From Escherichia phage vB_EcoM_I14.1, in sequence record PP892526.1: a stretch of 64,000 nucleotides of DNA; one strand, given 5' to 3'. Positions within the stretch are counted from its first letter, which is position 1; each line of letters starts with the position of its first letter. The position numbers and the translations under genes are program-made. The notes beneath the pieces were generated by a model, which worked only from the letters and a program-made list of their open reading frames with translations, had not been told where the DNA came from and searched no databases. Positions 2,863-20,753 of the stretch are shown piece by piece.

Positions 2863-8246
<5,384 letters not shown>

Positions 8247-18892: not shown

Positions 18893-18910
18893 TTGGCAGA
18901 TTTTTTATAA

Positions 18911-19450
18911 GGCTACTGCCATCCTTCCATACCTTACCACACCAAACCACACCATACCGAGCCACACCCTACCAGACCCTACCAAACCCGACCGAGCATC
19001 ACTTAAAAATCCTCTTAGAAGACTCTTAAGTGATGTAATCGAATTTTAATGTAGCTCCGATTAACTACCCATACCTCACCTTACTTAACCGTACCGCACA
19101 GAACCACACCAAACCTAACACCACTTCTCATCACCTTATTAAAAACCCTGTTTAAAGACCTTTTAAAAAGATGAGTCTCATTTTAATGTAGATGAGACTA
19201 ACTACCCGCACCGAACCTCACCTGACCTGACAGCACCCGACCTCACCGCGCCATACCATACCATACTTCACTTAAAAATCCTCTTAGAAGGCTCTTAAGT
19301 GATGTAATCGAATTTTTATGTAGCTCCGATTAACTACCCGCACTTTACCAAACCTCACCCTACCCTACCAGACCTTACCTAACCGCGCCGTACCTCATTA
19401 AAAGACCCTCTTAAAGACCTTTTAAAAAGGAGCCTCCGAAGAGGCTACCT
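18911..19450. repeat. tandem array of four ~110-160-bp composite repeats (G-poor CA-rich tract + A/T-rich palindrome + hairpin with conserved loop)
   Basis: Unit ends at 19070, 19207, 19339; units A and C share a ~70-bp near-identical block; unit B keeps loop ttttaatgtag and tail aactaccc with a different stem. Confidence 0.6.
19420..19448 (-). terminator. intrinsic terminator for leftward two-gene cassette
   Basis: Minus strand hairpin gcctc-ttcg-gaggc followed by tccttttt, just past the stop of 19458..19898. Confidence 0.5.
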
Positions 19451-19457
19451 AGTCAAC

Positions 19458-19898
19458 TTAGAAAGGTTTTCTACGTTGCTTATTAATGTTAGCTTTCATA
19501 GCAGCTAAATGGTTTTGCTGTTCAATCAGTCGTGAGCGTTCTTGATGGCTAAGTGCCATAGTGTTCACATTCTCAATCGCTTGAGTGGCTTGCTTTAAAG
19601 CTCGACCAATCTTGCCAGACATTTTACGTTTTGCAATAGTTGCTTGATGCTTAGGTTCAACCACACGATAACCAACACCCATTGAAGCAACCAGATAAAT
19701 CTTCTCTTCTTTAAGAAGCTTCTCAATAAACTTCTCAAGTCGGTTTAGACGTGTAAGCGCATAAGCCTTCATTTCATCTTCGTACTTAACAATGTCACCT
19801 TGATAAGTTGGCTTCACAATACCTAAGAATGTGTCCATCTCAGAATGTGATACAGTGTCACCGTAACTAAACTTTGCTGCTAATGCTTTTGTATTCAT
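19458..19898 (-). CDS. hypothetical protein (repeat-flanked cassette)
   Basis: 146-aa ORF followed by leftward intrinsic terminator. Confidence 0.4.
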   Translation of the reverse strand: MNTKALAAKFSYGDTVSHSEMDTFLGIVKPTYQGDIVKYEDEMKAYALTRLNRLEKFIEKLLKEEKIYLVASMGVGYRVVEPKHQATIAKRKMSGKIGRALKQATQAIENVNTMALSHQERSRLIEQQNHLAAMKANINKQRRKPF

Positions 19899-19900
19899 AA

Positions 19901-20506
<606 letters not shown>

Positions 20507-20574
20507 TTAGTTGATTGTTAAGTTGTTTGTAAAGAACCCTCAACAGAAGACTCTTTAGAAACTTGGTAGATTTT

Positions 20575-20700
20575 TAACGTGGCTACTACCATCCACCCAG
20601 ACTTTACCATACCTCACCAGACCATACCTCACCTGGCCGCGCCTTGCCTTGCCAAACATCACTTAAAAACCCTTTTAAAAGACTCTTAAGTGATGCTGGT
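20575..20700. repeat. fifth copy of the composite repeat (CA-rich tract + catcacttaaaaa...cttaagtgatg palindrome)
   Basis: Shares ggctactaccatcc, the CA-rich tract and the 10-bp-arm palindrome with units at 18911-19450. Confidence 0.55.
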
Positions 20701-20725: not shown

Positions 20726-20753
20726 AGTATACTCACCAAATTTTCTATGTCAA
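20726..20753 (-). promoter_or_regulatory. leftward sigma70-like promoter for cassette 20503->19458
   Basis: Minus strand TTGACA-N16-TATACT. Confidence 0.45.

What the first reader, a model, noticed from the sequence alone, without database searches (positions are those of the whole stretch)
18911..19450. Tandem array of four composite repeats between leftward operons
About 540 bp of non-coding DNA holds four units. Each has a 60-75 bp G-poor, CA-rich tract (e.g. ccataccttaccacaccaaaccacaccataccgagccacaccctaccagaccc), an A/T-rich palindrome (catcacttaaaaa...ctcttaagtgatg, 10-bp arms) and a hairpin with conserved loop ttttaatgtag ending aactaccc. Units A and C are ~96% identical over ~70 bp, while unit B keeps the loop with a different stem (agtctcat/atgagact versus aatcg/cgatt). 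The array sits between a leftward terminator and the next leftward promoter, so it need not be transcribed with the flanking genes. On the top strand the tracts look like Rho-utilisation sites; on the bottom strand they are G-rich with GGG runs. Candidate roles: replication origin, small structured RNAs, antisense-transcription barrier, or recombination scar.
Basis: seen in the sequence. Interest (0 to 1): 0.65.

Follow-up and report, generated by a model that had tools for sequence, protein, structure and literature searches.

The report
Guide-RNA array of phage VIPR system
The four repeats are genes for small guide RNAs of a phage-encoded, CRISPR-like "VIPR" system that silences rival satellite elements; the system was described in 2026 in a sister phage, so this is a clear but already known example.

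Summary
The window is Escherichia phage vB_EcoM_D4 (Felixounavirus). The "CA-rich tracts" are strict 5-nt repeats, (NNRCC)n on the top strand and (GGYNN)11-14 on the bottom strand. The bottom strand is the sense strand of the flanking genes. A fifth unit lies at 20563-20700.

Between the two sets of repeats lie two genes. One product is 191/195 identical to PDB 36pp "SUSP1 Vipr protein". The other is 145/146 identical to the SUSP1 neighbour gene (vap1). This is a type II VIPR locus (Viral Interference Programmable Repeat; bioRxiv 10.64898/2026.04.26.720920 and .720927). Vipr polymerises on the GGY motifs of each vrRNA, and the NN dinucleotides pair with DNA while skipping every third base.

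I re-derived that rule independently. Of 46 guides from 12 related phages, 28 match four E. coli satellite loci at >=80% with a 1-nt skip; only 1-3 do so with other skips. D4 guides 2, 3 and 5 hit satellite genes (21/22, 22/24, 23/28). The rut, origin, G-quadruplex and scar readings are not supported. Already known; low residual novelty.

The parts
20726..20753 (-). Sigma-70-like promoter (TTGACA-16-TATACT, 11/12) upstream of vrRNA1 and vipr; probable promoter of the VIPR operon
   Evidence: position relative to vr1
20659..20700 (-). Leader hairpin of vrRNA1 (AU/GU-rich, about 19 bp; 'palindrome' type P). It ends directly at the first repeat.
20563..20658 (-). vrRNA1: 12 GGYNN units (20658-20599) plus a 36-nt pseudoknot tail of class C (20598-20563).
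19901..20488 (-). vipr gene (195 aa, ATG at MKLLNIK): the RAMP-like protein that polymerises on the GGY motifs
   Evidence: 191/195 identical to PDB 36pp_D 'SUSP1 Vipr protein'. H17, K33, R39, E71, M72, K82, K88, R138, D177, W178 and R179 are present. PHROG 4652; no Pfam family.
19458..19898 (-). vap1 (146 aa), the VIPR accessory gene
   Evidence: 145/146 identical to SUSP1 AVU07_agp038, which occupies the same position next to vipr. The role is taken from 10.64898/2026.04.26.720920.
19431..19446 (-). Intrinsic-terminator-like hairpin after vap1. Its U-run is the start of the vrRNA2 leader.
19304..19436 (-). vrRNA2 unit: leader hairpin type Q (19436-19395), 11 GGYNN units (19394-19340), pseudoknot tail class B (19339-19304)
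   Evidence: The guide matches 21/22 NN positions in an O157:H7 satellite.
19172..19309 (-). vrRNA3 unit: leader type P (19309-19268), 12 units (19267-19208), pseudoknot tail class A (19207-19172)
   Evidence: The guide matches 22/24 in a satellite serine recombinase gene, with the skipped base at the wobble position.
19035..19177 (-). vrRNA4 unit: leader type Q (19177-19136), 13 units (19135-19071, three of them degenerate), tail class B (19070-19035)
   Evidence: No target was found.
18893..19040 (-). vrRNA5 unit: leader type P (19040-18999), 14 units (18998-18929), tail class D (18928-18893)
   Evidence: The guide matches 23/28 in the recombinase gene of the O157:H7 satellite.

Best explanation
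The region is the downstream guide-RNA array of a type II VIPR (Viral Interference Programmable Repeat) system of a Felixounavirus.

The locus reads leftward: promoter, vrRNA1, vipr, vap1, terminator, vrRNA2-5.

Each unit encodes, on the minus strand, an RNA of roughly 90-105 nt. It consists of 11-14 GGYNN pentamers followed by a 36-nt H-type pseudoknot.

The following steps were shown for the 98%-identical SUSP1 protein in the two 2026 preprints:
- One Vipr protomer binds each repeat and sequesters the GGY bases.
- The NN dinucleotides are presented for pairing with double-stranded DNA that carries the complementary dinucleotides separated by one skipped base.
- The result is an R-loop triplex that blocks transcription.

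Inferred here for D4: guides 2, 3 and 5 are aimed at E. coli phage satellites that carry Felix-like tape-measure and baseplate genes. The sites are a region just upstream of a satellite gene and the large serine recombinase gene. The array is therefore a weapon of the phage against its parasites.

Inferred, not shown: the AU/GU-rich hairpin in front of every guide is an RNA-level signal by which a longer transcript is cut into mature guides.
For: 1. The protein partner is present. ORF 19901-20488(-) is 191/195 identical to the solved 'SUSP1 Vipr protein', and all cited RNA- and DNA-contact residues are present. The neighbour gene is 145/146 identical to the SUSP1 gene in the vap1 position, and synteny is the same.

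2. The RNA anatomy fits. There are 11-14 GGYNN units, with G2 in 62/62 and Y3 in 61/62. The tail pseudoknot is 99% paired across 11 distinct tails, 8 of 9 pairs show changes on both sides, and slid controls give 29-43% paired.

3. Comparison of 12 related phages shows conserved leaders and tails, hypervariable NN positions, and 3-5 vrRNAs per locus.

4. I found the association independently, before reading the literature. (ACCNN)x6 hits more than 120 IMG/VR contigs. In 29 of the loci compared (28 IMG/VR contigs plus the window itself), a ~200-aa homologue sits next to the array, nearly always (28 of 29 ORFs) on the GGY-sense strand. These homologues are 18-42% identical, with R138, W144 and the G-loop conserved.

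5. The targeting rule holds. Of 46 unique guides, 28 reach >=80% NN match in four satellite loci with a 1-nt skip, against 1, 2 and 3 guides with skips of 0, 2 and 3. D4 vr2 matches 21/22, vr3 22/24 and vr5 23/28, against backgrounds of 15-18. Eighteen E. coli genomes carry the vr3 site exactly over 11 units, always in a recombinase gene. There is no self-target in the window.

6. The strand is the minus strand. Leader hairpins fold at -6 to -18 kcal/mol (most at -9 to -14) as minus-sense RNA, against -3 to -9 as plus-sense RNA, more stably in 35 of 37 variants.

7. Literature: 10.64898/2026.04.26.720920 and 10.64898/2026.04.26.720927.
Against: No expression data exist for this phage; transcription, RNA ends and Vipr binding are carried over from SUSP1.

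Guides vr1 and vr4 have no identified target.

vr5 reaches only 82%.

A terminator separates vap1 from the array, and no sigma-70-like promoter was found inside it, so how vr2-5 are transcribed is unresolved.
Confidence: 0.95

Rival explanations
1. Top-strand Rho-utilisation sites: rightward (antisense) transcripts would carry C-rich, G-poor 65-nt tracts that load Rho and stop antisense transcription.
For: The top strand of 18911-19450 has 179 C against 62 G. The tract length of about 60-70 nt is similar to the RNA footprint of a Rho hexamer (general knowledge).
Against: No sigma-70-like + strand promoter lies within or upstream of the array. One rut site would suffice, yet there are five. Rho does not require a fixed 5-nt register with invariant G2/Y3. 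The reading does not explain the covarying pseudoknot, the G.U-dependent minus-sense hairpins, the linked vipr gene or the matches of the NN code to satellites.
Confidence: 0.02
2. Replication origin or R-loop priming zone built from iteron-like repeats and AT-rich palindromes.
For: The region has AT-rich palindromes, strand asymmetry and a position inside the DNA-metabolism gene cluster.
Against: About 60% of related Felixounavirus genomes lack the whole 1.7-kb locus. In EC6, for example, the flanking genes are joined by 273 bp. It therefore cannot be an essential origin. The repeat content (NN) is hypervariable between close relatives, unlike initiator binding sites.
Confidence: 0.01
3. Bottom-strand G-quadruplex-forming element (GGNNN repeats giving two-tier quadruplexes) acting as a structural or regulatory DNA/RNA motif.
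For: The pattern (GGYNN)n formally fits G2N3 repeats.
Against: In the solved complexes the two G bases are flipped out and held by the protein. The third position is constrained to a pyrimidine (61/62), which a quadruplex does not need. Position 1 tolerates A or T in 11/62 units, which would break quartets.
Confidence: 0.01
4. Neutral minisatellite or recombination scar without function.
For: Copy number varies among relatives (3-5 units), and there are local unit expansions such as GGTAA x5.
Against: There is strong purifying selection on GGY and on both pseudoknot stems, through compensatory changes. D4 vr3 and SME50 vr4 keep identical NN while differing only at GGY positions. The guides also show specific matches to satellites.
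Confidence: 0.01

Closest known systems
Type II VIPR system of Escherichia phage SUSP1 (Suspvirus, Ounavirinae); bioRxiv 10.64898/2026.04.26.720920 and 10.64898/2026.04.26.720927; PDB 36pp
   Same: Gene order is the same, between the ORF127 homologue and DNA ligase. Vipr is 98% identical and Vap1 99% identical. The repeat code (GGYNN), the leader types and the four pseudoknot tail classes are the same. One vrRNA lies upstream of vipr and an array lies downstream.
   Different: D4 has four downstream vrRNAs (five in all) against three (four in all) in SUSP1. None of the NN guide sequences are shared with SUSP1. The predicted D4 targets include a satellite of E. coli O157:H7, the serotype on which D4 was isolated.
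Class 1 CRISPR-Cas effector complexes (Cas7 backbone on crRNA)
   Same: A RAMP-fold protein polymerises along a guide RNA. A thumb flips out bases periodically. A variable guide is capped by a conserved structured handle (paper's statement).
   Different: There are no cas genes, no Cas1/Cas2 and no repeat-spacer array. The period is 5 nt with three bases hidden and two read, not 6 nt with one hidden. The target is read with a 1-nt skip, and no PAM is reported.
TRAP (trp RNA-binding attenuation protein) bound to (G/U)AG-NN repeats
   Same: It is an analogy only. An oligomeric protein reads a triplet that recurs every 5 nt, with two free spacer bases (general knowledge). This analogy led me to look for a linked protein.
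   Different: TRAP is a closed 11-mer ring that regulates its own mRNA leader, and its spacer bases carry no information. Here the assembly is an open helical filament and the 'spacer' NN bases are the information.
Type III toxin-antitoxin RNA arrays (ToxI-like tandem repeats)
   Same: These are tandem arrays of structured RNA units, often with pseudoknots, next to a small protein gene and cut into monomers (general knowledge).
   Different: ToxI repeats are identical 34-36-nt units cleaved by the toxin. Here the units are about 135 nt, have internal 5-nt periodicity and differ in sequence. There is no toxin homologue.

Membership tests
VIPR system (type II, SUSP1 clade) | A Vipr protein (minimal RAMP: RRM core, G-loop, thumb) is encoded in the locus. 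| tested here: met
   191/195 identity to PDB 36pp_D 'SUSP1 Vipr protein', E = 2e-128. The contact residues H17, K33, R39, E71, M72, K82, K88, R138, D177, W178 and R179 are present.
VIPR system (type II, SUSP1 clade) | An accessory vap gene lies next to vipr. | tested here: met
   ORF 19458-19898(-) is 145/146 identical to SUSP1 AVU07_agp038, directly downstream of vipr. That this gene is vap1 follows from the paper's description of a two-gene locus.
VIPR system (type II, SUSP1 clade) | vrRNA with 9-16 tandem YNNGG/GGYNN repeats; GGY conserved and NN hypervariable. | tested here: met
   There are 11, 12, 12, 13 and 14 units. G2 is 62/62, Y3 61/62 and G1 51/62; positions 4-5 are free. NN differs among 12 related phages while leaders and tails are conserved.
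VIPR system (type II, SUSP1 clade) | A conserved structured 3' tail, a pseudoknot in the SUSP1 clade. | tested here: met
   Two interleaved helices (columns 3-6/17-20 and 9-13/30-34) are 99% paired. Eight of 9 pairs have changes on both sides. None of 500 shuffles reach the score, and slid registers give 29-43% paired.
VIPR system (type II, SUSP1 clade) | Locus architecture: vrRNA(s) in the long intergenic regions flanking vipr (one upstream, an array downstream). | tested here: met
   One vrRNA lies upstream (20563-20658) and four lie downstream (18893-19394), all on the vipr strand.
VIPR system (type II, SUSP1 clade) | Guides match natural DNA targets by the noncontiguous rule (NN, skip one base), not by other spacings, and do not target the phage itself. 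| tested here: met
   28/46 guides reach >=80% at skip 1, against 1, 2 and 3 guides at skips 0, 2 and 3, in four satellite loci. D4 vr2 matches 21/22, vr3 22/24 and vr5 23/28. The best self-matches in the window are at background level. vr1 and vr4 have no target.
VIPR system (type II, SUSP1 clade) | vrRNAs are expressed as ~100-nt RNAs, co-purify with Vipr and repress targeted transcription. | not testable with these tools
   Shown for SUSP1 by sRNA-seq, pull-down, GFP reporters and cryo-EM. There are no data for D4.
CRISPR array | Identical direct repeats of 23-55 nt alternate with unique spacers, next to cas genes. | tested here: not met
   No identical short repeats are found. The units are composite, about 135 nt long and 71-76% alike. 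The neighbouring proteins hit no Pfam Cas family.
Rho-dependent terminator (rut site) | A C-rich, G-poor tract lies in an RNA that is actually transcribed, downstream of a promoter on that strand. | tested here: inconclusive
   The composition fits on the + strand. However, no + strand promoter-like site lies within or upstream of 18900-19450, and all flanking genes are on the minus strand.
Rfam RNA families | A match to a curated covariance model. | tested here: not met
   No family reaches its gathering score in the whole window. Only chance-level hits (E 0.45-6) occur around the array.

The most novel reading that the evidence does not exclude
The AU/GU-rich hairpin that abuts the first repeat of every vrRNA may be a double-strand-specific (RNase III-type) processing signal. 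It would cut a polycistronic transcript, started at the operon promoter at 20753 and reading through the vap1 terminator, into mature guides. I did not find this role stated in the main text of the first VIPR preprint; I read only the Results of the second.

Leader plus guide plus tail would then form a modular cassette that related phages exchange and duplicate. D4 carries one cassette more than SUSP1, and identical guides occur in different phages.

The two orphan guides (vr1, vr4) would be aimed at elements not yet sampled.
Probability: 0.3. Interest if true: 0.45.

Novelty: already known. Interest (0 to 1): 0.3.

Why it matters
VIPR is a newly described mode of RNA-guided DNA recognition, in which a repeat scaffold carries a gapped dinucleotide code. 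It has been proposed as an ancestor of CRISPR RAMP effectors.

This locus adds nothing categorically new, but it is a clean natural example and offers four useful points:
- It has five guides, three of them with identifiable targets in satellites of the phage's own host serotype.
- It provides an independent, sequence-only confirmation of the 1-nt-skip rule.
- It shows that the locus is an accessory module, present in roughly 40% of Felixounavirus genomes.
- It points to an open question, namely how guides are transcribed and matured.

For annotation, these intergenic 'repeat regions' (DR_4 in wV8, repeat_region in nataliec) and the two adjacent 'hypothetical proteins' can now be named.

Tried and rejected
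1. Rfam. No family matched, either around the array with the E-value threshold or in the whole window at gathering scores. There are no tRNA or tmRNA genes.

2. Early ideas, before the protein was identified. I considered a TRAP-like ring wrapping RNA, a Rho sponge or rut sites, an R-loop origin, two-tier G-quadruplexes, Chi-like or primase sites, and DGR-like diversification. I kept TRAP only as an analogy. The others were dropped once the linked protein matched the solved Vipr structure.

3. Pfam gave nothing for Vipr or Vap1. PHROGs gave only 'unknown function' families 4652 and 5926. Vap1 has no solved relative.

4. Exact gapped-pattern scans of IMG/VR for vr1, vr2 and vr4 (10 dinucleotides each) found nothing. 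The vr2 target was then found in an O157:H7 satellite fetched from the E. coli genome set.

5. I tested whether the leader motif is a general phage promoter. GTCTTNTAANNGGGTNTTTTAA occurs only before vrRNAs in 64 kb, and no sigma-70-like promoter was found inside the array. The promoter idea for the leaders is therefore not supported, though not excluded for a phage-specific promoter type.

6. The first E. coli locus I fetched (ECONIH5, L134) was an IS-ridden remnant of a satellite. It was usable only in part.

Full report
**1. What the sequence shows**

The window is 100% identical to Escherichia phage vB_EcoM_D4, a Felixounavirus. All genes around the finding are on the minus strand, in the DNA-metabolism cluster that includes thymidylate synthase, DHFR and DNA ligase.

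The 540-bp region really contains four composite units with a period of about 135 nt. Printed in register, they read ACCNN on the top strand. The pattern RCCNN x4 + RCC occurs 23 times in the window, only at 18931-19394 and 20606-20653, and never in 100 shuffles. A fifth unit therefore lies in the next intergenic region.

**2. How I reached the identification**

Many of them hold tandem arrays of 9-19-pentamer tracts separated by short conserved linkers.

I oriented each array so that ACC is on top and clustered the neighbouring ORFs. One family of about 200 aa was present in 29 loci, nearly always (28 of 29 ORFs) on the opposite strand and usually ending a few bases from the array. The functional strand is therefore the GGY strand.

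The window's member of that family is ORF 19901-20503(-). It has no Pfam family, and its PHROG (4652) has unknown function. However, it is 191/195 identical to PDB chain 36pp_D, 'SUSP1 Vipr protein'.

[quoted passage not shown] In these systems:
- Vipr is a minimal RAMP protein.
- vrRNAs consist of 9-16 GGY/NN repeats plus a structured 3' tail.
- Vipr forms a filament with one protomer per repeat and hides the GGY bases.
- The NN bases pair with DNA while skipping every third target base.
- The result is transcriptional silencing.
- In the SUSP1 clade the natural targets are mostly a satellite phage.

**3. Membership tests done here**

*Proteins.* All RNA- and DNA-contact residues named in the structural paper are present, apart from 'T175'. 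Residue 175 is V in both D4 and the PDB chain, so this is not a difference between the two proteins. The downstream ORF 19458-19898(-) is 145/146 identical to the SUSP1 gene in the vap1 position.

*RNAs on the minus strand*:

| vrRNA | Repeat tract | Units |
|---|---|---|
| vr1 | 20658-20599 | 12 |
| vr2 | 19394-19340 | 11 |
| vr3 | 19267-19208 | 12 |
| vr4 | 19135-19071 | 13 |
| vr5 | 18998-18929 | 14 |

Each tract is followed by a 36-nt tail. Over the 62 units, G2 is invariant, Y3 is 61/62 and G1 is 51/62. Positions 4-5 use all four bases.

The tail is an H-type pseudoknot: GTAG pairs with CTAC, interleaved with a second stem. Four tail classes occur in 12 phages, and a fifth variant in a satellite vrRNA. 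On 11 distinct tails:
- 99% of cells are paired;
- 8 of 9 pairs change on both sides;
- no shuffle out of 500 reaches the score;
- slid registers give 29-43% paired.

*Comparative pattern.* In 12 Ounavirinae loci the leaders and tails are conserved, while the NN positions differ almost completely. The number of vrRNAs is 3-5; SUSP1 has 1+3 and D4 has 1+4. D4 vr3 and SME50 vr4 have identical NN but differ at three GGY positions. This is the signature of selection on the code itself.

**4. Targets**

I implemented the skip rule locally. E. coli chromosomes that carry a vrRNA1-like sequence (147 genomes) led me to elements of about 12 kb. These elements have a tape-measure gene, a baseplate gene and a large serine recombinase. 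They are inserted at wrbA or in a DUF72 gene, matching the paper's satellite.

Across four such loci, 28 of 46 unique guides from the 12 phages reach >=80% NN identity with a 1-nt skip. Only 1, 2 and 3 guides do so with skips of 0, 2 and 3. This confirms the rule independently of the preprints.

For D4:
- vr2 matches 21/22 positions at a site 49-80 nt upstream of a gene in the O157:H7 satellite.
- vr3 matches 22/24 in the recombinase gene, with the skipped base at the codon wobble position. Eighteen complete E. coli genomes carry the first 11 units' site exactly.
- vr5 matches 23/28 in the recombinase gene of the O157:H7 satellite.

Backgrounds (other skips, shuffled guide order) are 15-20. 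No D4 guide matches the window itself under the 1-nt rule. vr1 and vr4 have no target in the material I could search.

**5. The 'palindrome'**

Every vrRNA is preceded by a hairpin of about 16-19 bp that ends at the first repeat. It comes in two sequence types, P (CATCACTTAAG...TTAAGTGATG) and Q (CCTTTTTAAAAGGTCTT...GGGTCTTTTAA).

In 35 of 37 variants it folds much better as minus-sense RNA than as plus-sense RNA, because of G.U pairs. Its core motif occurs nowhere else in the 64 kb.

An 11/12 sigma-70-like promoter lies about 60 nt upstream of the vr1 repeats. No such promoter was found inside the downstream array. The mature SUSP1 RNAs are about 100 nt, so they exclude this hairpin.

I therefore infer, with modest confidence, that the hairpins are processing signals. 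The words 'RNase' and 'matur...' do not occur in the first preprint.

**6. Rivals**

None of the rut-site, origin, G-quadruplex or scar readings explains all of the following:
- the fixed register;
- the covarying pseudoknot;
- the strand-specific hairpins;
- the linked vipr family (18-42% identical homologues that keep R138, W144 and the G-loop);
- the code matches to satellites.

The locus is also absent from roughly 60% of related genomes (91 of 230 records cover >=80% of it). In EC6 the flanking genes are joined by 273 bp. This excludes an essential origin.

**7. Verdict**

The finding is real and biologically remarkable, but it is the orthologue of a locus already characterised experimentally in phage SUSP1. 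Novelty is 'already known'. What remains of interest is the extra guide cassette, the D4-specific targets, the two orphan guides and the unresolved maturation signal.

Noticed in passing
window 20563-20700 (minus strand): A fifth unit of the same kind (vrRNA1: leader hairpin, 12 GGYNN repeats, pseudoknot tail) lies upstream of vipr, outside the finding. An 11/12 sigma-70-like promoter sits at 20753-20726, about 60 nt before its repeats.
   Followed up: yes
window 18999-19040, 19136-19177, 19268-19309, 19395-19436, 20659-20700: The hairpins in front of each guide are stable only as minus-sense RNA, because of G.U pairs. Their core motif is unique to these sites in 64 kb. They may be a processing signal; I did not find this stated in the first preprint.
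   Followed up: partly
related phages: L133 (EC6) versus L125-L132; The whole 1.7-kb VIPR module is an accessory insertion between the ORF127 homologue and DNA ligase. About 91 of 230 Felixounavirus-like records carry it; the rest join the flanks with about 270 bp.
   Followed up: partly
L126 (sp7), L130 (SME50), L128 (BPS15Q2), L127 (E9), L002 (ASO1B); Identical guides occur in different phages: D4 vr2 = sp7 vr2, and D4 vr3 = SME50 vr4 in NN but with drift at GGY positions. One shared guide ends in 1 to 5 extra GGTAA units in different phages, which suggests cassette exchange and repeat slippage.
   Followed up: no
L135 15034, L136 6557, L134 20033 (E. coli satellites at a DUF72 gene or at wrbA): The satellites carry a single vrRNA with a class-C-like pseudoknot tail (second stem covaries: GTCG/CGAC). 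They have no vipr or vap1 (no tblastn hit), so they would depend on a helper phage's Vipr. The wrbA-type guide matches the EC12-type satellite at 20/24.
   Followed up: partly
L135 10475-10512; L134 17994-18031; L136 4506-4543: The EC12 satellite's own guide matches host intergenic sites (torZ-cmoB at 23/26; rutG-ymdF at 21/26) under the 1-nt-skip rule. This may reflect a repeated host element or may be chance.
   Followed up: no
IMG/VR loci L038 (1234-2423, minus), L026 (4602-5049), L047 (2100-2616), L024, L090: Other viral contigs hold much longer arrays (up to 13 tracts), with quite different short linkers instead of leader and tail. Examples are AAATTAAATTCATTAAACCATTCCTT, CCCATTAGCCTT and ACCTGCCA. 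These are probably other VIPR types. About half of the arrays had no BLAST-detectable Vipr neighbour within 3 kb.
   Followed up: partly
L125 (wV8) 813-870 and 2206-2263; L001 (nataliec) 3403-3439: Public records annotate parts of these vrRNA genes only as 'repeat_region' (DR_4), and vipr and vap1 as hypothetical proteins. The vrRNA is not in Rfam 15.
   Followed up: yes
L137 9354-9385 (O157:H7 satellite): The D4 vr2 target lies in an intergenic stretch bracketed by an inverted repeat (AAAAAGCACAC ... GTGTGCTTTTT), 49-80 nt upstream of a satellite gene. No consensus sigma-70 promoter was found there.
   Followed up: partly
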